Shown here in pieces: positions 2,808 to 60,604 of a stretch of DNA of 64,000 bases. The number at the start of each line of letters is the position of its first letter. Within the stretch, counting starts at the first letter, position 1. The translations under genes were made by a program, and so were the position numbers. Location of the stretch: NCBI GenBank assembly GCA_001823545.1, contig MHUV01000003.1:6718-70717 (forward strand), given 5' to 3'. The stretch comes from Candidatus Yonathbacteria bacterium RIFCSPLOWO2_01_FULL_43_27 (GTDB taxonomy: Bacteria; Patescibacteriota; Minisyncoccia; Phycocordibacterales; UBA1550). The notes under the pieces were generated by a model, which saw only the letters and a list, made by a program, of their open reading frames with translations, did not search any database and had not been told where the DNA came from.

Positions 2808-5021
2808 TCATACGGTTACGAGATCTTTTTCGACACGCTTTAATGACACGGCATTTACCGCAACTATTATTGAAGACACACTCATCAAAAGTGCCGCAAA
2901 TTCTGGACGGAGCATAATGCCAAAGCTAGGATATAGAATTCCTCCAGCAATAGGAATTGCAAGGACATTGTAAATTGAAGCCCAAAAAAGATTCTGTTTC
3001 ATTTTGCGAACTGTTGCTTTGCTTAAGGTGATTGCTCGAAGAATGTCTAATGGGTCTGATTTCATAAGAACAACTTTTGCAGTTTCGATTGCCACGTCCG
3101 TGCCTGCACCAATAGCAATACCCACATCAGATTGAGCGAGCGCGGGTGCGTCGTTGACCCCATCGCCCACCATTGCCGTAAATTTTCCTTCTTCTTGTAA
3201 TTTTTTTACGTAGCTCGCTTTATCCGCAGGTATTACTTCCGCAAACACTCTTTCTATACCAATACGACTTGCCACATTCTCTGCGGTATTTTTATTGTCG
3301 CCGGTAATCATAGCAATCTCAATACCCAAAGCTTTCAAACTCTCAACGGTTTTTATGGCATTGGGTTTTATTGGATCAACTACACCAATCACTGCTTTAA
3401 TGGACCCATCAACAGCGAGAATCATAATCGTCTCCCCTTTTTCCAGAAACTCATTTATTTTTTGTTCCAGTATACCCAGAGCAATACCCTGTTCCTTCAT
3501 AAGTCTCACGGTACCGATAAGTAGTTGTTTTCCGTCGACAACGGCCTTTACTCCCAACCCTGAAAGATTTTTAAATTTATCAACCGACTCTGGCAATATA
3601 AGGTCGCGTTTCTTAAGCTCATCGAGCACGGCACCAGCCAAAGGGTGAGATGATTTCGCCTCTGCCGCGCCGACGAGGCGAAGTGCTTCGTCTGCACTAA
3701 AACCATCCACGGTAGCGATGTCAGTTACTTTTGATTTTCCTTCGGTAAGTGTCCCAGTTTTATCAAGGACAATTGCTTGGATTTTTGAAACTTGTTCTAG
3801 TGTGGGAGCATCTTTTATAAGAATATTATGTTTTGCCCCAAGGCCAGTACCGACAGCTACGGCAGTCGGCGTGGCAAGTCCAAGTGCGTCGGGGCAAGCA
3901 ATGACAACCGTAGCAATAGCAAAAGAGAGAGCCAAAAGGAGCGGTGAACCAACTATAAAATACCAAATTATAAATACCAAAAGACCTGATCCTACCGCCA
4001 CAATGACCAAGTACTTTGCAAACCTATCGGCGATTCTTTGTCCCGGAGCTTTTGAATTCTGCGCTTCTTCAACCATCGTTACAATTCGTGCAAGAGCAGT
4101 GTCCTTGCCGATTTTTGTTGCCTTAAATTTCACCGATCCGGTAGTGTTGATTGATCCCCCAATGACCTGGTCCCCAATCCTTTTAGCCGTAGGGATCGAT
4201 TCTCCAGTAACCAAAGATTCGTCTATGGCAGTTTCTCCCTCAATAACCTCACCATCAACAGGAACCTTGTCTCCTGGCTTAAGAATGATGATGTCACCAA
4301 GTTGTATATCGGATGTGGAAACCATCATCTCTCTGCCATCTTTAAAGATTCTGGCTTGAGGCGGTACGAGATTAAAAAGTGCCTGAAGAGCGTCTGTTGT
4401 CCCGCGACGAGATCTCATTTCCATCCAGTGACCGAACAAGACGAACGTGATAAGCATGGCAGCCGCTTCGTAATAGGAATCGGTACTTCCCATAAGAGTA
4501 AGCAGGATACTGAAGCCATACGCTGCAGTAATGCCGACGGCAATGAGTACCGCCATATTCAGTATTTTATTTTTCAACGCAAAATAAGTTGAATAGAGGA
4601 AAATCCATCCGGAATAAAAAAATACCGGTGTTGTTAACATAAAGAGGAGCCACGGTAAAGGAATTGGAGATGCCAGATCAATCCTTAAAAACTCGGTGCC
4701 TAAAGGCGAATACAAAATTATAGGAATGGTGAGGATAAGCGAGAAGAAGAATTTATTCCGAATATCTATCTCCATGAGGCGAGCCATTTCCCGACCTGCA
4801 AGTCCGGTATGATCCATGCCCATCGTCATCGACATACTCATCTTGAACTTTCCCCAGAATCCCATCTTCGATATATCGCCCATTGCGTGCCCAGAATGGG
4901 CACTATGCTTTTCCTGATCATCTTTCTTAACAAGCTTCATCCCACATTTCGGGCACGTGCCGAGTTTGCCCGAAACAACCTCAGGATGCATTGGGCAGGT
5001 ATACATTTTGTTTTCTTTCAT
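2808..5021 (-). CDS. copA: Copper-translocating P1B-type ATPase
   Basis: DKTGTLT phosphorylation motif, GDGVNDAPAL, TGES-like actuator, membrane CP(D)-ALGLATP motif (IACPDALGLATP). N-terminal metal-binding region YTCPMHPEV...CPKCGM followed by a His/Met-rich linker. Confidence 0.9.
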   Translation of the reverse strand: MKENKMYTCPMHPEVVSGKLGTCPKCGMKLVKKDDQEKHSAHSGHAMGDISKMGFWGKFKMSMSMTMGMDHTGLAGREMARLMEIDIRNKFFFSLILTIPIILYSPLGTEFLRIDLASPIPLPWLLFMLTTPVFFYSGWIFLYSTYFALKNKILNMAVLIAVGITAAYGFSILLTLMGSTDSYYEAAAMLITFVLFGHWMEMRSRRGTTDALQALFNLVPPQARIFKDGREMMVSTSDIQLGDIIILKPGDKVPVDGEVIEGETAIDESLVTGESIPTAKRIGDQVIGGSINTTGSVKFKATKIGKDTALARIVTMVEEAQNSKAPGQRIADRFAKYLVIVAVGSGLLVFIIWYFIVGSPLLLALSFAIATVVIACPDALGLATPTAVAVGTGLGAKHNILIKDAPTLEQVSKIQAIVLDKTGTLTEGKSKVTDIATVDGFSADEALRLVGAAEAKSSHPLAGAVLDELKKRDLILPESVDKFKNLSGLGVKAVVDGKQLLIGTVRLMKEQGIALGILEQKINEFLEKGETIMILAVDGSIKAVIGVVDPIKPNAIKTVESLKALGIEIAMITGDNKNTAENVASRIGIERVFAEVIPADKASYVKKLQEEGKFTAMVGDGVNDAPALAQSDVGIAIGAGTDVAIETAKVVLMKSDPLDILRAITLSKATVRKMKQNLFWASIYNVLAIPIAGGILYPSFGIMLRPEFAALLMSVSSIIVAVNAVSLKRVEKDLVTV

Positions 5022-9879: not shown

Positions 9880-10377
9880 GTTGAGATACGGTGAAGTCTC
9901 GGTCAAGCGCTCGCTCGTCGCCTTATTTGCGGTAAATGAATCGGTCACAGATATTTTGTTCGCCCCTCGGTGAAGTCTCGGCCAAGAACATTTTTCCTCG
10001 TCGTCACTCGAAAAATTTCTCGGCCCTGCTCGGATGACCCATTCTACTGAATGGGTGCCCATCCTCGCTTTCGATTCCTTCACCTACCACGCAAACAATC
10101 GTCGCTCAATGCTCTGCATTGTTCTCCTTGTTTGCGGTAAATGAATCGGTCACAGATATTTTGTTCGTCGTCACTCATAAGATTCCGCGGTCACAGGTAT
10201 TTTTCTGCTGAAAAATCCCGCGACCCCTCCTCGCGCCGTCGCGCTCCGGCCTTGCGAAAGCTCCAAGTATTCGCTTTCTCACCCGGCTCGTGGTCTCGCG
10301 TGTTCGCTCGACAACACTCCGCCCTTCGATTCCTTCACCGTCGTAAAGCGTTGCTTTACGATACCCCTCGTTCACTG
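9880..10377. repeat. GC-rich repeat-rich non-coding island downstream of tRNA-Trp
   Basis: Exact 37-nt direct repeat tttgcggtaaatgaatcggtcacagatattttgttcg at 9926..9962 and 10131..10167. cggtgaagtctcgg at 9889 and 9968. cgtcgtcactc at 10000 and 10166. Inverted copies of the tRNA-Trp 3' end (ttcgattccttcacc) at 10069..10084 and 10325..10340. Hairpin cgtaaagc-gtt-gctttacg at 10342..10360. Confidence 0.6.
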
Positions 10378-10448
10378 CGGGCGGTGAAGGAATCGAACCC
10401 TCGACATCGGTTTTGGAGACCGAAGTTATACCATTTAACTAACCGCCC
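10378..10448 (-). tRNA. trnW: tRNA-Trp (anticodon CCA)
   Basis: Reverse complement GGGCGGT-TA-GTTA-AATGGTA-TAAC-T-TCGGT-CTCCAAA-ACCGA-TGTC-GAGGG-TTCGATT-CCTTC-ACCGCCC-G gives a full cloverleaf of 71 nt. CCA is not encoded. Confidence 0.85.
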
Positions 10449-14899: not shown

Positions 14900-15949
14900 T
14901 TATTTTATATATTTTGTTTTGTTAACCTTATGTTCATCGAACGTGCGCGCGTAGTGTAGTATTCCTTTTTCGTCCGAAAGGTAGTAGAGGTAAGGAGATT
15001 CTTTTGGTTTGATAGCAGCACGAATGGTGGAGATGCCAGGATTGCCGATAGGACCAGCGGGAAGTCCTTTATTTTTGTAGGTATTATACGCAGACTTCAT
15101 TGCAAGGTCTGTTTGAGTAAGCTCACTCGATGTTTTACCAAGTAAATAATAAAACGGAGCATCTACCTGAAGGGGGATCCCTTTTTCAATACGTTTCCAA
15201 AGAATTCCTGAAACAAGCGCTTGATCTTCTTCTGTTTTGGCCTCCTTTTCAATAATCGACGCCATAATAATAATTTCACGCTCAGTATGTCCTGAAGCTT
15301 CGATAAAAGGTGTCCACGGCTCAATTTTTTTCTTAAATTCAGTACTCATTACGCGTATGACTTCATCAGTGTTGGCGCTTGCATTAAAGAAATAGGTATC
15401 TGGAAATAAAAATCCTTCTTGTGTACGTGCACGGTCGGTAAAAAAGCGGGCGTCGAACTTTGAAAGGAGTGGTGAGAGAGTATCAGCAATACTTTGATTT
15501 GATGTTCCTTCAGGGATAGTGACTTTCACCATAGGAATACCTGAAACACCACGTACGATACGCATTGAAATACTGCATGCCCCTACAGGTTTTTTGAAAA
15601 CATAATCCCCCGCCATAATATGTTTATCGCCTCCTAATACTGTCATACATACTTTAAACATAAAGCCTGAGCGAATAATATTCTTTTCTTCAAACGAGAG
15701 CGCTACACTACCTAATGGCGAACCTTTTTCTACTGTAATAGTTTCATTTGAAGGAAACTGTCGTGGTGGAACTAAAAGATAAGCAAAAAAAGAAACGAGT
15801 AACACAAAAATAATTATTAGTACAAATAATATTTTTGAAGACCGTGTTGAGAGTCCGAGGCTCCCCGCAATCATTGAAAAAGGAATTTTTTTGAAAAAAT
15901 TTGTATTTTGTGGCGTTTGTGGTGGGTGTTCCGGTAGTATTTGATCCAT
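14900..15949 (-). CDS. mltG: Endolytic murein transglycosylase MltG (YceG family)
   Basis: TM anchor, then YceG motifs IPEGTS, ASIIEKEA, LQVDAP, NTYKNKGLPAGPIGNPG, YLYYLSDEKGILHYARTFDEH. Confidence 0.8.
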   Translation of the reverse strand: MDQILPEHPPQTPQNTNFFKKIPFSMIAGSLGLSTRSSKILFVLIIIFVLLVSFFAYLLVPPRQFPSNETITVEKGSPLGSVALSFEEKNIIRSGFMFKVCMTVLGGDKHIMAGDYVFKKPVGACSISMRIVRGVSGIPMVKVTIPEGTSNQSIADTLSPLLSKFDARFFTDRARTQEGFLFPDTYFFNASANTDEVIRVMSTEFKKKIEPWTPFIEASGHTEREIIIMASIIEKEAKTEEDQALVSGILWKRIEKGIPLQVDAPFYYLLGKTSSELTQTDLAMKSAYNTYKNKGLPAGPIGNPGISTIRAAIKPKESPYLYYLSDEKGILHYARTFDEHKVNKTKYIK

Positions 15950-15965
15950 GGTGAATGCGTTTTTG

Positions 15966-17249
15966 TTATATTGGTAAGTTTACCGGTGCCTCGCTCTTGT
16001 GTGAAGGAATGCGACCGAATGTTGGTGTCTGAGAAACACCTCCTGGGAAATGGAAGATCGTTGCAAGTTCCTCAGTAGTGAGCGTGAATGGCTTCAATTT
16101 GCGTGGTAAATAAAACCATGAGCGGTGCTTATACGCATCAAACTGAATCTTCCTTTTTTCTGAAATGCGTTTATTTTTACTAAAGTAAAATTTGGGGAAG
16201 AATATATAATCTTCAAATGTTACATATGACTGCCATGGGTAGTCAAAACCAGCAGTCTGGTTGAGGAGGCCGAAACCGTTAAGGTTACTTGAAGAAAATG
16301 CACCCCACAACACACCGAGCGCTCTACTGTGAACACCTATATTAAAATTTTCTTTTTTCGCAAGATACATTGCGCGCACTCCGCAATCAAAACCGGTTTT
16401 CCCAACGCTTCGCTCAATGGCTGCTATGGTATCCAGCTCCCCTCTTGTTTTCAAAAGCATTTTGAATCCAACATCTTCCCCTTCTTTCTTCTCCCCTTCT
16501 TTGAGCTTTGCGATGATGTCCTTTGCTTCATCTTTCCAATCACCCAAGCTGCCATCCTTCTTTTTGTATCTTTTTTCTGCTGCGCGTACAAGAATCTGAA
16601 TCCAAATCTGCTCACCTTTTCCTATTGAGCCAAGGTATTCTATTATTGAAGTAATAGGGTCAATTTTGTATTCTTCTTTAATACCTTCTTTGTCGAGCCC
16701 GTAGTCAACATAGGTTTTAATGGGGTACGGGTCGGCCTTTACGAGCTTATAGTCACGACCAACAACATCCCACGCACTACCTTCGCCATGATAATCAACA
16801 TAGCGTGTATAGTCAGGAACTTCGTAGATTTCAATGTCTGGATATTGCGCGTAAAGCTGTGCCTCAATAATGTTTTTATACGTGGCAGCAGAACGAATAA
16901 AAAACTTAACGTTCCCTTCGAGAGAAACTATTTCTAGAGAAAACCAATCTCGTACCCTGCCCTTAGTATACCAATCCCACCAATTGCCTTTTCCTGTTTG
17001 ATTGAGTGCGTTCAACATTATCTCCATCGCAAGAGGAGATTTATTTACTTCTTTTGGAACTTTAATTTCAAGCAAGACCCATTTTATTTTTGAGCGCCAC
17101 TGTGCTTGAATATAATGCACCCATGATTTCCATAGAACGTACGCAAAAACAACAGGTCCCCAGTACGGAAACCACTGAAGAATTATGATGAGATATATCG
17201 CTAGGTTACTAAAAAGTTTGCTGAATCCGAGTGTTTGAATAACATTCAT
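15966..17249 (-). CDS. Hypothetical conserved membrane-associated protein (427 aa)
   Basis: Long ORF with strong coding character and an N-terminal hydrophobic segment. No motif identified by eye; the C-terminal ELATIFHFPGG stands out. Confidence 0.4.
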   Translation of the reverse strand: MNVIQTLGFSKLFSNLAIYLIIILQWFPYWGPVVFAYVLWKSWVHYIQAQWRSKIKWVLLEIKVPKEVNKSPLAMEIMLNALNQTGKGNWWDWYTKGRVRDWFSLEIVSLEGNVKFFIRSAATYKNIIEAQLYAQYPDIEIYEVPDYTRYVDYHGEGSAWDVVGRDYKLVKADPYPIKTYVDYGLDKEGIKEEYKIDPITSIIEYLGSIGKGEQIWIQILVRAAEKRYKKKDGSLGDWKDEAKDIIAKLKEGEKKEGEDVGFKMLLKTRGELDTIAAIERSVGKTGFDCGVRAMYLAKKENFNIGVHSRALGVLWGAFSSSNLNGFGLLNQTAGFDYPWQSYVTFEDYIFFPKFYFSKNKRISEKRKIQFDAYKHRSWFYLPRKLKPFTLTTEELATIFHFPGGVSQTPTFGRIPSHKSEAPVNLPI

Positions 17250-17293
17250 ACACTACATCATACAATAAAGTATGAAAAGTAAAAAGAGCGGTT

Positions 17294-17338
17294 CCATATT
17301 AAAAAACCTCGCCATGGTGGCGAGGTTTTTTAATATGG
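17294..17338. terminator. Perfect 21-bp stem palindrome flanked by A-run and T-run (bidirectional intrinsic terminator)
   Basis: ccatattaaaaaacctcgcca-tgg-tggcgaggttttttaatatgg. Confidence 0.6.
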
Positions 17339-17342
17339 AATG

Positions 17343-18371
17343 TTATGCAAGTATATACTTCCCTTCTTTTGTTTTTTTGAAAATCTTTGGATCTTGCAGG
17401 TTTACAAAGACAGTGTTTTCTTTGACATAACGCTCTTTGAGCACACGATCTATGATGTCCTTTTTCGAAAGTGGGCCTTCTTTTTTGAGAATTTTAGCAA
17501 TGACATCTTTAACGATTCCCTGCTCGTATCCCCACGAAGAGAGTGCGTATAGTCCGCGTCCAACGAGAATAAAACGAGGGTCTTTAATAAGTTCGTTGTG
17601 GCAAGTAGCAATATGAGCTTTTTTATCAAAAACTTGAGAAATTGATTTAGCAACTTCTGTGAAGTGCATTGGTGAGCCATGCTTACGAAGCACCAAATAT
17701 GCGTAGTCGCGCATACCACGTGCACTTACATTGTGTGATTCCGACCTCCCCCATTCGCCAAGCGGATTCTTTGAAATGGTTTTTGAGAGTGAGAGCCAAC
17801 GCTTGGTAATCTCTTCGTTCTTGTATGTATCTGATACGTCTTTGAGATGATTGAGGAACATCGCGATAAGTTCATTTTCGGGAATAAGTTCGTCTTGCGA
17901 AAGTGACTCATAGAGCGTGCGAAGTGCATCATGCACCTTCATTGAAATTTTGTCATCAACAATCCATCGATGATGAAAATGTTCATTCTCTTTTTCTCGA
18001 GCAAATTCATCGCCAAGTACCAAGAGGAAGTAGAGATGGTTTTGTGTGCTAGGATCTTTGGAAATATGCATCAAAAAATCTTCCTCACACACTACGCCAC
18101 CCATAGAAACAACAAGGTTGTGGAGCTCCGTAAAAACCCCTGCCTCTTTCTTGAAGATGTCAGATTTTTTTATGGTCGCAAGTGCAAAATTTTCTATCTG
18201 ACGCACACGCTCGCGGGTGATGTGATAAATATCGCCGATTGCTTCAAGAGTCATTCGGTCGGTATTATCTCCTAGTCCATAACGCTTGATAATGACATCT
18301 AGGTTGCGTGGAGGTAGTGTAGCGATAAGCCTTTTTACTACTTGCTTTGGCTTAAAAGTAATTGCGGACAT
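17343..18371 (-). CDS. DNA-binding protein: sigma-70 region-4-like HTH plus C-terminal HARE-HTH-like winged helix
   Basis: N-terminus LEAIGDIYHITRERVRQIENFALATIKK matches a sigma70 r4 HTH. C-terminus HFTEVAKSISQV...LIKDPRFILVGRGLYALSSWGY resembles HARE-HTH, as in RpoE-delta. Confidence 0.5.
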   Translation of the reverse strand: MSAITFKPKQVVKRLIATLPPRNLDVIIKRYGLGDNTDRMTLEAIGDIYHITRERVRQIENFALATIKKSDIFKKEAGVFTELHNLVVSMGGVVCEEDFLMHISKDPSTQNHLYFLLVLGDEFAREKENEHFHHRWIVDDKISMKVHDALRTLYESLSQDELIPENELIAMFLNHLKDVSDTYKNEEITKRWLSLSKTISKNPLGEWGRSESHNVSARGMRDYAYLVLRKHGSPMHFTEVAKSISQVFDKKAHIATCHNELIKDPRFILVGRGLYALSSWGYEQGIVKDVIAKILKKEGPLSKKDIIDRVLKERYVKENTVFVNLQDPKIFKKTKEGKYILA

Positions 18372-18502
18372 AGGTTATTGGTTAAATTACAATGATTAAA
18401 TGTTATGTTTACTATTGGTACTTTTTATCACTAAAGGAGCATAAAGTCAAGAGGTGGGTTTACAAGCACTGAGGTTGAGTTTACGCTTATTGGTTTCTAT
18501 CG

Positions 18503-21340
18503 TTACCCCGTAACAATATTTATTAATTTACCCTTTACGATAATGATTTTTTTGATTTCCTGACCCCCTACCCATTTCACTACCATTTTTTCCTCCAGCG
18601 CGAGTTTCTGTATTTCCTCGTCAGAGGCAGATAAAGGGACGGTAATTGTTTCGCGTACTTTGCTGTTTACCTGAACGACAATAACGATCTCTTGCGCAGT
18701 CGTTTTTGATGGATCGTAGGTTGGCCACCGTGAGAGGTTGATTGACTCTGCGTTCCCGAGTGTATGCCATAGCTCTTCCGTAATATGTGGCGCAAATGGT
18801 GATAGGAGCACGAGGAGTGTTTCGTACTGTGAACGAAGTAGAACTGTTGCCTTCTCCATTTCATTTACCAAAATCATTAGCGCTGAGATTGCGGTATTGA
18901 AGTTAAATGATTCAATATCTTCCCCTACTTTTTTTATTGTCTTATGGAGAATTGACTCTACATCATGTGTGTCCCCTGCCGTGACAATTTTTTCTTGTAA
19001 ACGCCATACCCGCTCGAGAAAACGACGTGGTCCAATAATACTTTCGGTACTCCACGAAACAGATTGAGTAAATGGCCCCATAAACATTTCATACATGCGC
19101 ATCGTGTCTGCACCGTACTGATGGACCACATCATCAGGATTTATGACGTTGCTCCAGCGTTTGCTCATCTTGCGTCCATCGTTTGCCATAACCAAACCGA
19201 CGTTATATAAACGATTAAAAGGTTCCTCGTAATTCACCACCCCAAGATCGTACAAAAACTTATGATAGAATCGCGCGTAAATAAGGTGGCGCGTAGCGTG
19301 TTCAGCTCCACCGACATACATATCTACCGGTGACCAATATTGTTCTTTTGTATGCTCAACAAGTGCCGTGTCGTTCTTTGGATCCATATAACGAAGGTAG
19401 TACCACGATGATCCAGCCCACTGAGGCATCGTATTTGTCTCGCGTTTAGCAGGACCGCTACACGTTGGACAGGTCGTGTTTACCCAATCGGCAATATTCG
19501 CGAGTGGAGATTCTCCCGTTCCCGTAGGTTCGTACGATTCTACTTTTGGAAGAACTACGGGTAATTCATTTTCTGGTACTGCAACAACACCGCATTTTTC
19601 ACAGTGTACAAGGGGAATTGGTTCGCCCCAGTATCGTTGTCGTGAAAATACCCAATCCTCAAGACGGTACTTTGTTGTCCATTTCCCTTTTACAAAATGC
19701 GTGATATTTTTCTTCGCCTCTTCATTTGAAAGACCATTGAAATCACCAGAGTTAATGAGTACGCCACTGTCAATGTGTACCGCATCTTTTTCCTTGAGAC
19801 GAAGGAGCCAAATATCCATTTCCGCATGACACATCGTCACGGGGTTAATTTCTGATTCATCAAGCCATACGATGTCATTGTTTTCCTCTTCTTCTTTTGT
19901 AATCGAAGAACGCTCTTCATCTACCAATTCAGCATAGACCGCCGTGGTATACGAAACTCTGTTCTGGTCCTTATGCGCTGCAAAATACTCCGCGCGTACT
20001 TGCCCACCCAAAATTTGCTCGTTAGTGATATTTTTGTATCCCGTCTCCTCTAAAAGTTCTCGTCGCGCAGCATCAAGAACACTTTCTCCTTGTTCGACGC
20101 CACCCATAGGAAACGTAGTCCACCAATACTTCTTAGATTTCAAGCAAAGAAATTTCCCATTACGAGGATTTCGTATAATAACGTGCACATTTTCTCTTGT
20201 TACACTTTTCTTGCCGAGAACAGGAGGATTTCTCTTGTCGACTCTCTCAGGAATAATAACTTCTTTAACAGGAAGATGGTATTTTTTTGCAAAGGTAAAA
20301 TCTCGTACATCGTGTGCGGGTACTGCCATAACCGCTCCCGTACCGTAATGCGCAAGAACATAGTCTGCCACATACACAGGAAGCTCCTCGTTATTTGCGG
20401 GGTTTATCGCTATTACTCCTTTGAGCTGTACGCCTGTTTTTTCTTTACCAACAGCAGTGCGCTCTATTTCTGTTTTTATTTTTACCGCATCGCAATATGC
20501 TTCTACTTCGCTTTTATTAGAAACTTCCTCAAGGAGTTCACTCACGAGGGCGTGTTCTGGTGCCAATACCACATACGTCGCACCAAAAAGTGTGTCAGGA
20601 CGCGTCGTGAACACGGTAATTTTCTTGCTACCTCCCTTAATAAGGAAATCAATTTCCGCGCCTTCACTTCGCCCAATCCAATTTCGTTGTGATTCTTTGG
20701 TTGATGCGGGCCACTCAAGTTTATCGAGATCGGTAAGCAAACGGTCTGCGTAGTCGGTAATACGGAGCACCCACTGACGCATAGGTTTTTTCTCGATAAG
20801 GGTATCACATCGCTCACAACGGTCTCCGTCGAGGTCTTCGTTTGCAAGTCCCGTCAAGCATTTTGGGCACCAGTTAATAGGCTCATACGATTCATAAGCA
20901 AGACCTTTTTCGAACATTTTAAGAAAAATCCACTGTGTCCAACGATAGAAGTGCGGGTCAGTAGTATTTACTTCGCGTGACCAATCATAATCAAACCCCA
21001 GAATGGAGAGCTGTTCTTTATAACGAGCAACATTTTGTGCCGTCATAACCATCGGGTTAATTTTCATCTTGAGGGCGTAGTTTTCTGCGGGTAAACCAAA
21101 TGCATCAAAGCCCATAGGGTGAAGTACATTGAATCCCTGTAGTCTCTTCATACGAGAATACACGTCGGTTGCAATATAGCCCTTAGGATGCCCAACATGG
21201 AGACCCTCTCCAGAGGGATATGGGAACATGTCTAGTACATAGCACTTTGGTTTACTGATATCCTCTTTTGTATGATATAAGCCTGCCTTCTCCCATTGTT
21301 CCTGCCATTTCTTTTCTATCGTTCTGTGGTCGTAATTCAT
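18503..21340 (-). CDS. leuS: Leucyl-tRNA synthetase carrying an internal Nudix-box-containing insertion
   Basis: PYPSGEGLHVGHPKGY (HIGH), editing-domain TRPDTLFGATYVVLAPEH, KMSKR and the anticodon-binding domain are all present. A ~145-aa insert sits between AHDVRDFTFAKKYHLPVKEVI and GVLINSGDFNGL and contains GGVEQGESVLDAARRELLEETGY. Confidence 0.9.
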   Translation of the reverse strand: MNYDHRTIEKKWQEQWEKAGLYHTKEDISKPKCYVLDMFPYPSGEGLHVGHPKGYIATDVYSRMKRLQGFNVLHPMGFDAFGLPAENYALKMKINPMVMTAQNVARYKEQLSILGFDYDWSREVNTTDPHFYRWTQWIFLKMFEKGLAYESYEPINWCPKCLTGLANEDLDGDRCERCDTLIEKKPMRQWVLRITDYADRLLTDLDKLEWPASTKESQRNWIGRSEGAEIDFLIKGGSKKITVFTTRPDTLFGATYVVLAPEHALVSELLEEVSNKSEVEAYCDAVKIKTEIERTAVGKEKTGVQLKGVIAINPANNEELPVYVADYVLAHYGTGAVMAVPAHDVRDFTFAKKYHLPVKEVIIPERVDKRNPPVLGKKSVTRENVHVIIRNPRNGKFLCLKSKKYWWTTFPMGGVEQGESVLDAARRELLEETGYKNITNEQILGGQVRAEYFAAHKDQNRVSYTTAVYAELVDEERSSITKEEEENNDIVWLDESEINPVTMCHAEMDIWLLRLKEKDAVHIDSGVLINSGDFNGLSNEEAKKNITHFVKGKWTTKYRLEDWVFSRQRYWGEPIPLVHCEKCGVVAVPENELPVVLPKVESYEPTGTGESPLANIADWVNTTCPTCSGPAKRETNTMPQWAGSSWYYLRYMDPKNDTALVEHTKEQYWSPVDMYVGGAEHATRHLIYARFYHKFLYDLGVVNYEEPFNRLYNVGLVMANDGRKMSKRWSNVINPDDVVHQYGADTMRMYEMFMGPFTQSVSWSTESIIGPRRFLERVWRLQEKIVTAGDTHDVESILHKTIKKVGEDIESFNFNTAISALMILVNEMEKATVLLRSQYETLLVLLSPFAPHITEELWHTLGNAESINLSRWPTYDPSKTTAQEIVIVVQVNSKVRETITVPLSASDEEIQKLALEEKMVVKWVGGQEIKKIIIVKGKLINIVTG

Positions 21341-21349
21341 ATGCTTGTG

Positions 21350-22345
21350 TTATTTTGTTGGTATCTTATCAATTGGCGGGTACCGCTCTGGGTCTATAGT
21401 TCGTTCGAAACACGCGTGTCCTTTTTTGTGATGCCAATTATCTATTTTTTCTCCTTTTACATCAATAACTGCTACAGGGTATGGTCGCGATATCATGTTT
21501 GACGATCCATCCATTGTTGTGCGACTTTGTCCATTAAATACTGCGCACAACTGGAACGAAAGCGATGATGAACCCTTATACTCGTATGCTTCTTTTGTTT
21601 GTGGGTCTGTGGGTAACATAAAACCAGAAATAGGATCTGAGAGGTCACTTAATTTTTCTGGCAATCTTTTTTTCTGCTGCCAATAATTTACTACTTGCCA
21701 TTGAATATTCTGCAGGTCATTTACCCGCTGTGTATCATATCGTGCCAGACGCGCCTGTCGTGGTGTCCCTACGATAAAAAATCCTGAGATTACGGTACCA
21801 GCAACAATTACCGCAACCGCAACACCAACATAGAATATACGTCGCGGAAAATGTGTCCAGTATCCTTTCATGTCTGCAAGAAAATGTGCAAATACAATGA
21901 TTGCAACAATAATTACCGTTGCAATTTTCAAGAGGAAACGTGCGGTAAGCTCTTCGCCGTTCAAAAAGGTACTCAAGAGTACAATAAGAGTTCCCGCAAT
22001 TGTTGCACCTGAGACAAACAACGTGAATACGAGTGCCCATCGGCGCACCCAAATCTCCTGTCGCGTGGAATCAATAGATATGGTGTGGCGAATAACGCGC
22101 ATCAACACGAGGAATACCGGAACCGCAACGATTACCATTGCCATATAAGCACTGATACCGCTCTGGTAAGGGTCGATTTGGTATCCTCTCAGTGGATCGG
22201 GGTAAAGATAATTAATATACTGAAACACAAGATTAATAAACGCAATAATACTTGTATAAAATGCACCCATTGCGCCCACCCAAAGAAAGAAATCCTTAGG
22301 GGCTACGCGCGCACTTTTCCCTGGTTGTGTGGTAAGTGTTTCCAT
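21350..22345 (-). CDS. Multi-pass membrane protein, hypothetical
   Basis: 6-7 hydrophobic helices in the N-terminal two thirds, with a soluble C-terminal domain. Start taken at METLTT. Confidence 0.45.
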   Translation of the reverse strand: METLTTQPGKSARVAPKDFFLWVGAMGAFYTSIIAFINLVFQYINYLYPDPLRGYQIDPYQSGISAYMAMVIVAVPVFLVLMRVIRHTISIDSTRQEIWVRRWALVFTLFVSGATIAGTLIVLLSTFLNGEELTARFLLKIATVIIVAIIVFAHFLADMKGYWTHFPRRIFYVGVAVAVIVAGTVISGFFIVGTPRQARLARYDTQRVNDLQNIQWQVVNYWQQKKRLPEKLSDLSDPISGFMLPTDPQTKEAYEYKGSSSLSFQLCAVFNGQSRTTMDGSSNMISRPYPVAVIDVKGEKIDNWHHKKGHACFERTIDPERYPPIDKIPTK

Positions 22346-22434
22346 ATACAATACTATACCCCACATTTAATTTCCCGACAATATTGTTATTGCTTCTCAA
22401 AAATAATTTGTGTGATAGAATACGAGTAAATTAT

Positions 22435-38077: not shown

Positions 38078-40651
38078 TTACTTCTTTTTTAGCACCTTCT
38101 TGAGGTATTTCCCTGTATGGGAATGTGTATTTGCAGCGATTTGCTCAGGAGTACCCCGCGCAACGATCTGTCCGCCCCCTACCCCACCCTCGGGACCAAA
38201 ATCAAGCACGTAGTCTGCACTTTTTATAACATCCATATTGTGCTCAATGAGTAGCACGCTGTTGCCTTTATCAACAAGTTTTTGCAAAATTTCAATAAGT
38301 TTACGTACGTCTTCATAATGAAGTCCAACAGTTGGTTCATCGAGAAGGTAGATTGTACGCTCAGCAAAAGGACGGTAGAGCTCTGAAGAGATTTTAACAC
38401 GCTGTGCCTCGCCACCAGAAAGTGTGGTTGCTGATTGCCCAAGCTTCAAATACCCAAGTCCTACCTCATTCAGTGTTTTGAAACGATCGTAAATTGCGGG
38501 AATATCCTCAAAAAACGTGAGTGCTTCTTCGACGGTCATTTCGAGCACGTCGAAAATATTCTTTTTTTTGTACTTTACCTCGAGTGTTTCTTTATCGAAT
38601 CGTTTTCCGCGACACACATCGCACGTTACATACACCGTTGGTAAAAAGTGCATTTCAACCGCAATGAGCCCATTACCCTGACAGGTCTCACATCGACCAC
38701 CTTTTACATTAAAAGAAAAACGTCCCGGCCCCCACCCACGCAAGCGCGCCTCCTCGGTTTCCGCAAAAATATCACGAATAAAGGTAAATGCACCCGTGTA
38801 GGTTGCGGGATTAGAACGGGGGGTGCGTCCGATAGCAGACTGATCAATAAGCACCGTACGGCTCAAATATTCCGTGCCGGTAAAACTTTCACAATTAAAA
38901 ATCTGATTAGTGCGATACTTGTATTCCAAACGCGCTTGAAGATTTTTGTGCACTATTTCGTACAAGAAGGTAGACTTTCCTGAACCAGAAACACCCGTAA
39001 TAGCAACGAGTTTACCGAGAGGAATTTCCGCATTAAGATTTTTTATACTAAACGCTGCACCCTCACGAATACGCAGATGCCCGCGATCTTGCGCGCGACG
39101 TGCATGAGGAATCTCAACCACAGTATCTCCACGCAGATAATCGAGCGTAAGTGATTTATATTTTTTAGGATTGGTAATGAGGTCATCAAGATACCCTGCT
39201 ACCACGATATTACCACCATGCACCCCCGCCCCTGGGCCAATATCCACCATATAGTCCGCAGAGAAAATAGTATCCTCATCGTGTTCAACCACAATGATAG
39301 TGTTGCCGAGATCGCGTAATTCTTTCAGGGTTTTAATGAGGCGGTCATTGTCTCGCTGATGAAGACCGATAGTCGGCTCATCGAGCACATAGAGCGCGCC
39401 CACAAGACGTGAACCGAGCTGTGATGCCAGACGGATGCGTTGTGCCTCACCACCAGAGAGTGTGTTGGCGCGTCGGTCGAGAGTAAGGTAATCAATCCCC
39501 ACGTCAAGCATAAAGCGAAGACGGTTTTCAATTTCCTTTACCACTGGCACCGAAATATCTTTATCACGCGTAGATATTTTCAAGTGTGCAAAAAAATCAC
39601 TTGCTTCACGAATTGACATGCGGGTCACCTCGACAATATTCTTGCCACTGATGCGTACATTTAGGGCTTCTTTACGCAAACGAGCACCTTCACAGTCAGG
39701 GCACGCTTCTTTGCCAAAAAAATGTTTCGTGCCAAGACCATTACAAAGTGGACACGCGCCGTAGGGAGAATTAAACGAAAAAAGACGTGGCTCTATTTCT
39801 GGATATGAAAAACCATCATTGGGGCACGCAAAACGATTGGACATAATGGTGTCTTTGAGAATTGTCGTATCTTTTGCAAACACAATACGTACCAAACTTT
39901 CAGATTCAGTAAGTGCACGCTCCATCGCCTCAGCAAGACGCGCGCGCCCTTTTTCGTTCTTACCAGCAAAGTCTGCTATGCTGATTTCATCAACCAGTAC
40001 ATCAATCTCGTGCTTTTTTGTCTTTGAAAGAATGATCTGCTCGCGAAGATTTTTCATCTCGCCATCAATGCGCACCAAAAGGTACCCTTTGCCAAGGAGA
40101 TCGTAGAGAAGCTGATAGTATTCGCCCTTGCGCCCACGTACAATGGGTGCAAAAATTTTAATAGTGTCAGATTTTTTTCCAACAGCTCCCTTCACATCTT
40201 CCATAATGAAATTCAAAATTTCCTCGTTACCAAGACGCTTGATTTCTTCTCCACACACGAGACAATAAGGTTTTCCAATACGCGCATACAATACACGAAG
40301 GTAATCGTAGATTTCGGTAATCGTCGCCACGGTCGAGCGTGGATTTGATGAGTGTGATTTTTGGTCAATAGAAATTGCCGGCGAAAGACCCGTGATTTCA
40401 TCCACGTCGGGCTTTTGCATTTGATTCAAGAACTGACGTGCGTATGCGGAAAGTGACTCAACATAGCGTCGTTGCCCCTCTGCAAAAATCGTATCAAACG
40501 CAAGGGATGATTTTCCTGAACCAGAGAGACCTGTAAAAACCGTCATCGTGTTGCGCGGTATTTCAACAGAAATATTCTTAAGATTGTGCGTGCGGGCACC
40601 ACGAACAGTGATTTTATCCAGCTCTTTTATTTTTTTATGTTCCGATCTCAT
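38078..40651 (-). CDS. uvrA: Excinuclease ABC subunit A
   Basis: Two ABC ATPase modules ([24 protein letters not shown]; LSGGEAQR in both) and zinc-finger Cys clusters. Confidence 0.9.
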
Positions 40652-60518: not shown

Positions 60519-60591
60519 TCCGTGATAGCTCAGTCGGTAGAGCGCCTCGCTGTTAACGAGGATGTCCCAGGTTCGAGCCCTGGTCACGGAG
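60519..60591 (+). tRNA. trnN: tRNA-Asn (anticodon GTT)
   Basis: TCCGTGA-TA-GCTC-AGTCGGTA-GAGC-G-CCTCG-CTGTTAA-CGAGG-ATGTC-CCAGG-TTCGAGC-CCTGG-TCACGGA-G; 73 nt. Confidence 0.9.
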
Positions 60592-60604
60592 CAAAAACAG
60601 TTAT

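What the first reader, a model, noticed from the sequence alone, without database searches (positions are those of the whole stretch)
19781..20218. Nudix hydrolase-like module inserted inside leucyl-tRNA synthetase
The 945-aa LeuS ORF (18503..21340, minus) is intact and carries every canonical LeuS block: HVGH, the CP1 editing domain (TRPDTLFGATYVVLAPEH), KMSKR and the anticodon-binding domain. In E. coli LeuS the blocks 'AHDxRDxxFAxKYxLPxKxVI' and 'GVLxNSGxFxGL' are about 20 residues apart. Here they are separated by ~165 residues. The extra ~145 aa (protein positions ~375-520) contain a letter-perfect Nudix box, GGVEQGESVLDAARRELLEETGY (G-x5-E-x7-R-E-U-x-E-E-x-G-U). That makes this an aaRS with an embedded pyrophosphohydrolase-like domain rather than a neighbouring gene. 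Nudix enzymes hydrolyse Ap4A and related dinucleotides, which aaRSs produce, and also NAD/CoA RNA caps. A fused module at this site, near the KMSKS/catalytic domain junction, could act on aa-AMP or ApnA by-products, or be a regulatory sensor.
Basis: partly seen in the sequence, partly recalled or inferred. Interest (0 to 1): 0.8.

Follow-up and report, generated by a model that had tools for sequence, protein, structure and literature searches.

The report
Nudix enzyme nested inside leucyl-tRNA synthetase
An intact leucyl-tRNA synthetase from a Patescibacteria-type bacterium has a complete, conserved Nudix pyrophosphohydrolase domain inserted into a loop of its proofreading domain, and the same Nudix family is also fused to or encoded next to other tRNA synthetase genes, which suggests an undescribed link between tRNA charging and nucleotide by-product clean-up.

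Summary

It sits inside the CP1 editing domain, 15 residues after the editing motif AHDxRD, not at the KMSKS junction.

It is not an artefact. The identical protein is on 21 contigs. All 80 loci fetched of at least 116 matching GTDB species genomes carry it in frame at the same site. Insert dN/dS is 0.04, against 0.06 for the rest of the gene.

New findings:
- Relatives carry up to three Nudix copies plus alpha/beta-hydrolase, HAD or DUF559 inserts at other LeuRS loops.
- The same narrow Nudix family is embedded in a class II ProRS.
- 7 of 10 free-standing members sampled lie immediately beside an aaRS gene. One lies 3 nt upstream of an insert-less leuS.

Best reading: an active Nudix that works with aaRSs. 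It probably clears dinucleoside polyphosphates of the Ap4A type. The substrate is not proven.

I found no published description.

The parts
18503..21340 (-). leuS ORF, 945 aa, a single uninterrupted reading frame
   Evidence: ORF. (TIGR00396, 1025 bits against cut-off 548). (identical protein on 21 contigs).
21188..21199 (-). HIGH signature (HVGH, aa 48-51) of the aminoacylation site
   Evidence: Invariant in the family alignment.
20255..20686 (-). CP1 editing domain, N-terminal part (aa 219-362; Pfam PF13603 profile positions 1-147 of 185)
20591..20608 (-). Editing-site threonine-rich motif TTRPDT (aa 245-250)
   Evidence: T245, T246, R247 and T250 are invariant.
20300..20317 (-). Editing-site motif AHDVRD (aa 342-347), 15 residues before the insert
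   Evidence: A342, H343, D344, R346 and D347 are invariant.
19778..20254 (-). The inserted segment (aa 363-521, 159 aa), which replaces a 14-18-residue loop of solved LeuRS structures
   Evidence: AlphaFold insert-only model has pLDDT 95.8.
19841..20197 (-). Nudix domain core (aa 382-500, Pfam PF00293)
20036..20104 (-). Nudix box GGVEQGESVLDAARRELLEETGY (aa 413-435), the catalytic metal-binding helix
   Evidence: E428, E431 and E432 are 98-100% conserved in 208 site-C copies.
19958..19993 (-). Family-specific motif AEYFAAHKDQNR (aa 450-461). It has an aromatic residue 17 positions after the box, and K457, N460 and R461 are near-invariant.
   Evidence: These positions are shared by embedded and free-standing members.
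19661..19777 (-). CP1 editing domain, C-terminal part (aa 522 to about 560, including GVLINSG), which resumes after the insert
   Evidence: aligns to Thermus residues 377 onward. (the insert-less relative L094 has PF13603 positions 1-185 contiguous).
19157..19171 (-). KMSKS signature (KMSKR, aa 724-728)
18617..18958 (-). Anticodon-binding domain (aa 795-908, PF08264)

Best explanation
The gene encodes a working leucyl-tRNA synthetase with a third, independent catalytic module. A catalytically competent Nudix pyrophosphohydrolase is nested in a variable surface loop of the CP1 editing domain, and CP1 is itself an insertion in the Rossmann catalytic domain.

The Nudix belongs to a narrow family found in Patescibacteria-type and possibly DPANN-labelled genomes. 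The members of this family work together with aminoacyl-tRNA synthetases in general. They are fused into the synthetase (LeuRS at several sites, ProRS) or encoded directly beside it.

Most likely mechanism: when the synthetase's aminoacyl-adenylate reacts with ATP or another NTP instead of tRNA, it forms dinucleoside polyphosphates (Ap4A, Ap3A, Ap4N). The attached Nudix cleaves these on the spot to AMP plus NTP or NDP. This returns adenylate to a cell that probably cannot make nucleotides de novo, and it prevents accumulation of Ap4N or Ap4N-capped RNA.

Shown: the fold, the intact catalytic box, purifying selection, the exact insertion site, clade-wide conservation, and the genomic link between this Nudix family and aaRS genes.

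Inferred: that the Nudix is enzymatically active, that it acts on by-products of the synthetase, and that the substrate is an ApnN.

For: 2. Selection. E428, E431 and E432 are 98-100% conserved in 208 site-C copies. Insert dN/dS is 0.038 against 0.063 for the rest of leuS, measured against L011. Insert mean pairwise identity is 0.49, similar to the anticodon-binding domain at 0.47.

3. LeuRS is intact. HIGH, KMSKS, TTRPDT and AHDxRD are all present and invariant.

4. Not an artefact, and ancient. The identical protein is on 21 contigs from different samples. At least 116 GTDB species genomes match. All 80 fetched loci carry the Nudix in a stop-free frame; in 74 of them both motifs are found and REx2EE lies 84-85 residues after AHD, and most show LeuRS motifs on both sides.

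5. Link to aaRSs.
- A free-standing homologue (P0196) lies 3 nt upstream of a leuS that lacks the insert. This is the split-gene counterpart of the fusion.
- P0142 lies 1 nt upstream of a leuS that has the insert, in the same synteny as the window.
- Other free-standing members lie immediately beside thrS, proS, argS, alaS and a MetRS-like gene.
- That is 7 of 10 sampled. The probability is about 1e-7 if 4-6% of genes have an aaRS neighbour.
- The same family (34% identity, E 6e-27, shared motifs) is embedded in a class II ProRS.
- Extra copies occur at three or four other LeuRS sites.

6. Substrate lean.
- The best profile hit in the PDB is lupin Ap4A hydrolase 1F3Y (E 3e-8).
- RppH, which hydrolyses Ap4A and removes Np4A caps (PMC10148737), is the top characterised fold match.
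- There is an aromatic residue 17 positions after the box, at the X-loop position that correlates with ApnA activity (PMC5389931).
- aaRSs are the main cellular source of Ap4N (PMC7705103, PMC10148737).
Against: - No Nudix subfamily model reaches its threshold. The best RppH model scores 31 bits against cut-offs of 116 or more.
- The similarity to Ap4A hydrolase and RppH is about 20% identity and is concentrated on the Nudix box.
- The best structural neighbour, 2AZW, is uncharacterised.
- The +17 aromatic residue is Tyr in only 54% of site-C copies and Phe in 42%.
- LeuRS is in the low Ap4A-synthesis class, and ArgRS, one of the neighbours, is in the undetectable class (PMC10148737).
- The insert can be lost cleanly. 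P0005 is 87% identical outside the insert and lacks it. About 15 Yonathbacteria-type relatives also lack it.
- Unrelated domains (alpha/beta hydrolase, HAD, DUF559) are inserted in other LeuRS loops, so this lineage tolerates passenger domains.
- Two free-standing homologues sit next to fpg or dUTPase/thymidylate-metabolism genes, which suggests nucleotide-pool sanitation instead.
- The spatial relation of the Nudix site to the synthetic and editing sites could not be measured, because the tools return no coordinates.
Confidence: 0.4

Rival explanations
1. Passenger fusion. The Nudix is an ordinary housekeeping enzyme, for example nucleotide-pool sanitation of the MutT/NTP-pyrophosphatase type or ADP-sugar hydrolysis. 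It is simply hosted in a permissive LeuRS loop. The only gain is guaranteed co-expression in a tiny genome, and there is no mechanistic link to aminoacylation.
For: - This LeuRS clade also hosts alpha/beta-hydrolase, HAD and DUF559 domains at other loops.
- An IleRS hosts a histidine-phosphatase domain.
- The host loop varies in length in relatives that lack the Nudix.
- P0005 shows a clean loss, and Yonathbacteria-type LeuRS lack the insert.
- Free-standing homologues lie next to fpg/mutM and near dUTPase, thymidylate kinase, ThyX and dCMP deaminase.
- PDB sequence neighbours include proteins named MutT and NudI.
Against: - The same narrow family (646 representatives at E<=1e-3) was fused independently into a class I and a class II synthetase.
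- It was duplicated within LeuRS at several sites.
- Free-standing members are immediately adjacent to six different aaRS genes in 7 of 10 samples.
- It is kept at exactly the same LeuRS site in all 80 loci fetched of the 116 or more matching species genomes, under strong purifying selection.
- MutT and ADP-ribose pyrophosphatase family thresholds and motifs are not met (direct reading of the sequence).
Confidence: 0.25
2. RNA-end enzyme. The Nudix acts on RNA rather than on free nucleotides. It could be an RppH-like pyrophosphohydrolase or decapping enzyme for 5'-ppp or Np4N-capped RNA. More speculatively, it could repair tRNA whose acceptor end carries a blocking pyrophosphate. In both cases it would use the synthetase as its tRNA/RNA-binding platform, since CP1 is the domain that receives the tRNA 3' end.
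For: - E. coli RppH is the best characterised fold match, and RppH models are the top NCBIfam hits, although below threshold.
- Dcp2-type decapping enzymes are also among the profile hits.
- The insert lies 15 residues from the editing-site Asp, in the domain that binds the CCA end (the role of CP1 is my knowledge).
- aaRSs can themselves install Np4A caps on RNA, and RppH removes them (PMC10148737).
Against: - There is no direct evidence of RNA binding.
- In ProRS the domain sits between the anticodon-binding domain and the C-terminal domain, and many members are free-standing. CP1 geometry is therefore not essential.
- Mature tRNA 5' ends are monophosphates after RNase P processing (my knowledge).
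- The tRNA 3'-pyrophosphate repair idea rests only on my recollection of toxSAS toxins.
Confidence: 0.15
3. Non-catalytic module. The Nudix fold serves as a nucleotide-binding sensor, or as a structural or protein-interaction domain that modulates editing or aminoacylation, without hydrolysing anything.
For: - A few lineages have degenerate boxes. Examples are P0106 (R to A), P0070 (E to S), P0026/P0036, and one-residue deletions in P0032, P0051, P0091 and P0116.
- A substantial minority of site-A copies have substitutions at box positions E419 (Gln in 37%) and R427 (Arg in only 55%); P0008's second site-A copy lacks the box.
- Non-enzymatic Nudix proteins exist (PMC5389931).
Against: The metal-binding glutamates E428, E431 and E432 are 98-100% conserved, and R427 is 93% conserved, in 208 site-C copies. 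The window's box is perfect. dN/dS is 0.038.
Confidence: 0.05
4. Artefact. A chimeric assembly or an unnoticed frameshift has joined leuS fragments to a separate nudix gene.
For: None found. Short-contig fragments in the databases (for example P0121-P0123) only reflect truncated contigs.
Against: - The identical 945-aa protein is on 21 contigs from different projects and assemblers.
- All 80 species-level loci have one stop-free frame through the Nudix.
- There is no compositional break across the insert.
- The full-length AlphaFold model is confident through both junctions.
Confidence: 0.01

Closest known systems
Canonical bacterial LeuRS (Thermus thermophilus 1H3N/2BYT, E. coli 4AQ7, the 877-aa LeuRS 6Q89)
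   Same: Same domain order and all catalytic and editing motifs. E 6e-228 to 1H3N. CP1 is inserted in the Rossmann fold.
   Different: A 159-aa Nudix domain replaces a 14-18-residue CP1 loop. The roughly 58-residue segment Thermus 580-637, which I recall as the leucine-specific domain, has no counterpart. The review PMC13114784 lists the LeuRS editing domain as insertion-exclusive and never a host. Here it is a host.
RppH/NudH and asymmetric Ap4A hydrolases of the Nudix superfamily (E. coli RppH 4S2W/7SP3, lupin 1F3Y, Aquifex 3I7U, Thermus Ndx1)
   Same: Nudix fold and box, with an aromatic residue about 17 positions after the box. These are the best characterised sequence-profile and fold neighbours. 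They hydrolyse the dinucleotides that aaRSs make (PMC10148737).
   Different: Only about 20% identity. No equivalog threshold is met. The window's domain has its own signature (R382, W407, K457, N460, R461, W492) and is embedded in a synthetase rather than free.
NadM-Nudix bifunctional NMN adenylyltransferase/Nudix hydrolase (NCBIfam NF003786; described in PMC7824862)
   Same: A HIGH-superfamily adenylyl-transferring enzyme is fused to a Nudix that degrades an adenylylated dinucleotide. This is the nearest published logic for 'maker plus Nudix breaker in one chain'. There is a weak hit (E 2e-5).
   Different: That Nudix is appended as a terminal domain, not nested, and the partner is NMNAT, not an aaRS. 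The score is 23.9 bits against a cut-off of 397, so the window protein is not a member.
Class Ia aaRSs with an extra enzymatic domain (NCBIfam NF040702, 'isoleucine--tRNA ligase, N-acetyltransferase domain-containing')
   Same: This is a precedent that bacterial class Ia synthetases can carry an accessory enzyme domain. The model name appears.
   Different: The domain type is different (GNAT). Its position and function were not examined here. The window protein scores 73.7 bits against a cut-off of 1999.
Human LysRS / Ap4A / NUDT2 axis
   Same: It works alike in principle. An aaRS makes Ap4A and a Nudix hydrolase removes it (PMC7705103, PMC10148737).
   Different: The proteins there are separate, and the system is regulated as a signalling pathway. 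Nothing here shows signalling.
2AZW, MutT/nudix family protein of Enterococcus faecalis
   Different: 17-18% identity, free-standing, and named only generically as a MutT/nudix family protein in the PDB entry. It gives no substrate assignment.

Membership tests
Bacterial leucyl-tRNA synthetase (TIGR00396 leuS_bact) | Whole-protein HMM score above the curated cut-off | tested here: met
   1025.1 bits against 548.4.
Bacterial leucyl-tRNA synthetase (TIGR00396 leuS_bact) | Class I signatures HIGH and KMSKS | tested here: met
   HVGH aa 48-51 and KMSKR aa 724-728. Conserved in the family.
Bacterial leucyl-tRNA synthetase (TIGR00396 leuS_bact) | CP1 editing domain with the threonine-rich motif and the AHDxRD aspartates | tested here: met
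   PF13603 scores 216 bits. TTRPDT and AHDVRD are present, and T245, T246, R247, T250, D344 and D347 are invariant.
Bacterial leucyl-tRNA synthetase (TIGR00396 leuS_bact) | Leucylation of tRNA-Leu and hydrolytic editing | not testable with these tools
   Needs biochemistry.
Nudix hydrolase superfamily (PF00293) | HMM score above the gathering threshold | tested here: met
   60.1 bits in the whole protein and 63.2 bits for the excised segment, against 21.1.
Nudix hydrolase superfamily (PF00293) | Nudix box GX5EX7REUXEEXGU | tested here: met
   GGVEQGESVLDAARRELLEETGY, aa 413-435.
Nudix hydrolase superfamily (PF00293) | Alpha/beta/alpha Nudix fold as an independent domain | tested here: met
Nudix hydrolase superfamily (PF00293) | Metal-dependent pyrophosphohydrolase activity | not testable with these tools
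   Inferred from the conserved glutamates only.
RppH / ApnA-hydrolase subfamily | Score above the curated equivalog cut-off (NF001934-NF001938) | tested here: not met
   The best scores are 30.9 and 31.1 bits, against cut-offs of 116-259.
RppH / ApnA-hydrolase subfamily | Conserved Tyr in the X-loop, about 16-18 residues after the Nudix box (PMC5389931) | tested here: inconclusive
   The window has Y452 at +17. Across 208 site-C copies it is Tyr in 54% and Phe in 42%.
RppH / ApnA-hydrolase subfamily | Hydrolysis of Ap4A/Ap5A or 5'-ppp/Np4N-capped RNA | not testable with these tools
   Needs an enzyme assay.
MutT 8-oxo-(d)GTPase | Equivalog HMM cut-off (NF008044) | tested here: not met
   19.3 bits against 148.
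ADP-ribose pyrophosphatase subfamily | Subfamily HMM cut-off, and a Pro about 15-16 residues after the box (PMC5389931) | tested here: not met
   TIGR00052 scores 20.9 bits against 79.55, and NudE 23.9 against 169. Positions +15 and +16 are Ala and Glu (read directly from the sequence).
NADH pyrophosphatase subfamily | SQPWPFPxS motif downstream of the box (PMC5389931) | tested here: not met
   The motif is absent from the insert sequence.
NadM-Nudix bifunctional enzyme (NF003786) | Equivalog HMM cut-off | tested here: not met
   23.9 bits against 397.
Intein / mobile insertion | Cys/Ser/Thr at the N-terminal junction, His-Asn plus Cys/Ser/Thr at the C-terminal junction, and Hint or homing-endonuclease domains | tested here: not met
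   The junctions read ...KEVI|IPERVD... and ...KEKDAV|HIDSGV.... Only NUDIX is detected in the insert. There is no compositional break.
Known anti-phage defence proteins (PADLOC) | Significant match to a defence-system model | tested here: inconclusive
   Only a weak generic hit to the candidate model PDC-S07, 27.4 bits.

The most novel reading that the evidence does not exclude
This Nudix family is a dedicated, previously unrecognised partner of aminoacyl-tRNA synthetases in ultra-small prokaryotes. It gives the synthetase a third active site that works in cis on products of the adenylate chemistry. It could cleave Ap4N before release, remove caps from RNA that the synthetase has Np4-capped, or unblock tRNA acceptor ends. 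Under this reading the multi-hydrolase LeuRS proteins (up to three Nudix copies plus alpha/beta-hydrolase and HAD domains, up to 1558 aa) would be integrated quality-control and salvage machines rather than accidents of fusion.
Probability: 0.3. Interest if true: 0.85.

Novelty: new variant of a known kind. Interest (0 to 1): 0.7.

Why it matters
Whether Ap4A and related dinucleotides made by aaRSs are signals or merely damage by-products has been debated since their discovery in the 1960s. A large, diverse lineage wires a Nudix hydrolase directly into LeuRS, and independently into ProRS, or keeps it beside aaRS genes. That gives a natural system in which producer and presumed destroyer are physically coupled. 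The coupling can be tested with one recombinant protein and two point mutants.

For aaRS structural biology, this shows that the CP1 editing domain can itself host a full enzyme. That makes a three-level nested architecture and contradicts a recent generalisation that this domain is never a host (PMC13114784).

For the biology of Patescibacteria, it adds a clade-wide and so far unremarked feature of an essential gene. It also reveals a family of LeuRS proteins decorated with several hydrolase domains. Automatic annotation currently names all of these just 'leucine--tRNA ligase'.

Tried and rejected
1. Assembly or frameshift artefact. Rejected.

2. Intein or mobile element. Rejected: no splice-junction residues, only a Nudix domain, no compositional break.

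4. The 'Tyr at +17' ApnA signature. Only loosely met, with Tyr and Phe in roughly equal shares.

5. Word-indexed homologue search with the insert alone. It returned only 5 hits. The exhaustive representative search was needed.

6. First genome scan with the 29-sequence insert alignment. It failed because the alignment was too diverse. It worked with 8 closer sequences.

7. AFDB fold search. The library was not available.

8. PADLOC defence models. Only a weak generic hit.

9. Literature. Seven searches found no description of a LeuRS-Nudix or aaRS-Nudix fusion.

10. dN/dS against more distant relatives. Synonymous sites were saturated, so only L011 was usable.

11. Geometry of the Nudix site relative to the editing and synthetic sites. 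This was not possible because the structure tool returns no coordinates.

12. Whether the Nudix copies at different LeuRS sites are independent captures or internal duplications. Nearest-neighbour analysis shows site-specific clusters (A with A in 35 of 38, C with C in 191 of 208) but does not settle the order of events.


Full report
**1. The observation**

The ORF at 18503..21340 on the minus strand is open for 945 codons. It scores 1025 bits on the bacterial LeuRS equivalog TIGR00396 (cut-off 548), in two stretches. Pfam finds these domains:
- class I catalytic domain;
- LeuRS editing domain PF13603 at aa 219-369, covering profile positions 1-147 of 185;
- anticodon-binding domain at aa 795-908;
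- NUDIX domain at aa 382-500, 60.1 bits against a gathering score of 21.1. The excised segment alone scores 63.2 bits.

Motif positions are: HVGH 48-51, TTRPDT 245-250, AHDVRD 342-347, Nudix box GGVEQGESVLDAARRELLEETGY 413-435, KMSKR 724-728. This is the only Nudix box in the six-frame translation of the window.

Against Thermus LeuRS (1H3N), window aa 3-362 align to residues 4-362 and aa 522-719 to residues 377-579. So 159 residues stand where Thermus has 14. The 877-aa LeuRS 6Q89/7NTY has 18.

The insert is aa 363-521, nt 19778..20254.

**2. Where the insert really is**

That is wrong. The editing-domain profile is interrupted at position 147 of 185 and resumes after the insert. An insert-less relative, L094, matches positions 1-185 without a break. 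The Nudix is therefore nested in a loop of CP1, 15 residues after the editing-site AHDxRD motif.

This loop varies in length in relatives that lack the Nudix. CP1 is itself an insertion in the Rossmann fold, so this is a three-level nesting. A recent survey lists PF13603 as an insertion-exclusive module with no instances as a host (PMC13114784). This clade is an exception.

**3. Is it real, folded and under selection?**

- The identical 945-aa protein is encoded on 21 contigs from different samples and assemblers.
- GC content shows no break across the insert.
- The full-length AlphaFold model has pLDDT 87.4 and pTM 0.75. The insert blocks score about 87-94 and the junctions 81-90.
- The insert alone folds with pLDDT 95.8 and pTM 0.88.
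- Foldseek finds 494 PDB chains at E<=1e-3, all Nudix.
- In 76 family members of about 950 aa, the insert has mean pairwise identity 0.49. The anticodon-binding domain has 0.47 and the catalytic core 0.72-0.74.
- Against the closest species-level relative (L011), dN/dS is 0.038 in the insert and 0.063 in the rest of leuS.
- The metal-binding glutamates E428, E431 and E432 are 98-100% conserved in 208 site-C copies. A few lineages have degenerate boxes.

**4. Distribution**

- Of the best 120 LeuRS homologues (53-92% identity), 104 carry PF00293. Sixteen proteins of about 800-837 aa do not; those that carry a source name are labelled Yonathbacteria or Minisyncoccia.
- A scan of one genome per GTDB species found 116 matching loci with two narrow peptide patterns. 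Record titles include Paceibacterota, Taylor-, Wolfe-, Kaiser-, Wildermuth-, Yanofsky-, Kerfeld- and Moraniibacteria.
- All 80 fetched loci have the Nudix in a stop-free frame. In 74 of them both motifs are found and the REx2EE core lies 84-85 residues after AHD; most show LeuRS motifs on both sides. This fits one ancestral insertion at this site.
- P0005 is 87% identical outside the insert. It keeps the flanking remnants IIPGRIDD...ESVYIDSG but lacks the domain. This is a clean secondary deletion, and it shows that LeuRS does not need the insert to stay intact.

**5. LeuRS in this clade hosts inserts at several sites**

The larger homologues (1061-1558 aa) carry further inserts at defined positions, given here in window numbering:

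| Site | Position | Inserted domain |
|---|---|---|
| A | about aa 207 | one or two extra Nudix copies |
| B | about aa 235-240 | Nudix, alpha/beta serine hydrolase or DUF559 |
| C | aa 363-521 | the window's Nudix |
| D | about aa 585 | inserts of about 130-200 aa; alpha/beta-hydrolase families in P0081 and P0107 |
| E | about aa 613-632 | HAD or Nudix |

Some proteins have three Nudix boxes. P0105 has Nudix copies at site A but none at site C. Copies cluster by site.

**6. The Nudix family and its link to synthetases**

The exhaustive search of 1.84 billion representatives with the insert found only 646 proteins at E<=1e-3 and 160 at E<=1e-10. About 110 of the best 150 are LeuRS proteins or LeuRS fragments. 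About 27 are free-standing proteins of 126-207 aa.

Embedded and free-standing members share a signature: R382, W407, GG, E419, RE, EE, GY, [YF][FY]452-453, K457, N460, R461, E484, W492.

I sampled the genomic context of ten free-standing members:

| Protein | Context |
|---|---|
| P0142 | 1 nt upstream of a leuS that has the insert, same synteny as the window |
| P0196 | 3 nt upstream of a leuS without the insert (the split-gene counterpart of the fusion) |
| P0214 | beside a thrS-type gene |
| P0174 | beside proS |
| P0183 | 12 nt after argS and near an ileS |
| P0224 | 40 nt before a MetRS-like fragment |
| P0218 | 97 nt before alaS |
| P0175 | two genes from a ProRS that has the same Nudix embedded at aa 399-538 (34% identity to the window insert, E 6e-27) |
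| P0158 | follows fpg |
| P0154 | beside another Nudix gene |

Seven of ten are immediate aaRS neighbours. The probability is 2e-8 to 3e-7 if 4-6% of genes have an aaRS neighbour. The neighbour frequency is my estimate for a genome of about 800-1000 genes.

The ProRS fusion is rare: 5 of 120 ProRS clusters have it. It is therefore an independent event in a structurally unrelated class II enzyme.

**7. What it most likely does**

What all these synthetases share is adenylate chemistry. aaRSs are the main source of Ap4A and related Ap3-5N (PMC7705103, PMC10148737). Nudix enzymes, including RppH, are the asymmetric ApnA hydrolases and the Np4A-decapping enzymes (PMC10148737).

The family's nearest characterised relatives are of that type:
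- lupin Ap4A hydrolase is the best profile hit (E 3e-8);
- RppH is the best characterised fold hit;
- an aromatic residue sits at +17 in the X-loop (PMC5389931).

I therefore favour a synthetase-coupled ApnN hydrolase that recycles adenylate and prevents Ap4N accumulation or RNA capping.

The evidence is indirect, with these weaknesses:
- no subfamily threshold is met;
- the similarity is concentrated on the Nudix box;
- the +17 residue is Tyr in only about half of the copies;
- LeuRS is a weak Ap4A producer, and ArgRS makes none, in classical assays (PMC10148737);
- the lineage tolerates unrelated passenger domains;
- some free-standing homologues sit with DNA-repair or dNTP-metabolism genes.

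Rival readings are a passenger housekeeping Nudix, an RNA- or tRNA-end enzyme, and a non-catalytic module.

aa-AMP is an unlikely substrate because it is an acyl-phosphate, not a diphosphate (my knowledge).

**8. Novelty**

Seven full-text searches found no description of a Nudix domain in LeuRS or any aaRS. Public records call these proteins 'leucine--tRNA ligase' or 'class I tRNA ligase family protein'.

The nearest published logic is the HIGH-superfamily NMN adenylyltransferase fused to a Nudix (PMC7824862). NCBIfam also lists an IleRS with a GNAT domain.

I rate this a new variant of a known kind. The enzyme and the domain are both known. The nested architecture is undescribed, and so is the association of this Nudix family with aaRSs.

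**9. Verdict**

- Observation: confirmed.
- Interpretation: partly supported. The domain identification is right, the location is wrong, and the ApnA idea is plausible but unproven.
- Interest: 0.7.

Noticed in passing
Relatives P0008, P0011, P0044, P0045, P0049, P0053, P0056, P0061, P0081, P0107, P0118 (window-protein sites at about aa 207, 235-240, 585 and 613-632): LeuRS proteins of 1061-1558 aa carry up to three Nudix copies plus alpha/beta serine-hydrolase (PF06821/PF00561), HAD (PF13419) or DUF559 endonuclease-like (PF04480) domains, inserted at four or five distinct loops.
   Followed up: partly
L097:2762-4693 (+): A 643-aa archaeal-type ProRS has the same Nudix family embedded between the anticodon-binding domain and the C-terminal domain (aa 399-538). 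Only 5 of 120 ProRS relatives have it. Many of the relatives that lack it are labelled Nanoarchaeota or Woesearchaeota, so the family may span both CPR bacteria and DPANN archaea.
   Followed up: partly
L008:6094-9648 (+): An 1184-aa IleRS carries an inserted histidine-phosphatase domain (PF00300). It is flanked by three or four separate Nudix genes, argS, thymidylate kinase and dUTPase.
   Followed up: no
L093:3451-5303 and L094:492-3217: A free-standing 161-aa Nudix (P0196) lies 3 nt upstream of a leuS whose editing domain is uninterrupted. This is the split-gene version of the window's fusion, in the same YchF-DUF5671 neighbourhood.
   Followed up: yes
L096:356-2764 (P0005): A LeuRS 87% identical to the window protein outside the insert has precisely lost the Nudix while keeping junction remnants (IIPGRIDD...ESVYIDSG). 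There is no Nudix gene in the short upstream flank.
   Followed up: partly
window 19166..19186 (-), aa 719-725: The window LeuRS has no counterpart of Thermus residues 580-637, which I recall as the leucine-specific domain. Only about 5 residues bridge the gap just before KMSKR.
   Followed up: no
window 14900..22366 (-): The gene order DUF5671 - leuS - sigma70_r4/HARE-HTH protein - DUF8128 - YceG is conserved in relatives. In some relatives a free-standing Nudix sits between DUF5671 and leuS. In the window that gap is 9 nt.
   Followed up: partly
P0076 (Yonathbacteria LeuRS, 837 aa), same CP1 loop: A relative that lacks the Nudix has an unrelated extension of about 30-40 residues in the same loop. 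This confirms that the loop is a variable, permissive site.
   Followed up: no
P0030 / L074, and many L0xx record titles: Taxon labels on several MAG records that carry this bacterial-type LeuRS look unreliable. Examples are 'Nanoarchaeia archaeon', 'Thermodesulfobacteriota', 'Gammaproteobacteria' and 'Fimivivens'. They probably reflect binning or labelling errors.
   Followed up: no
window 38078..40651 (-) and 41711..43726 (-): Genes similar to UvrA and UvrB lie downstream in the window, and a P-type heavy-metal ATPase is at 2808..5021. These are ordinary housekeeping context. tRNA-Trp (10377..10448) and tRNA-Asn (60519..60592) are the only RNA genes detected.
   Followed up: no
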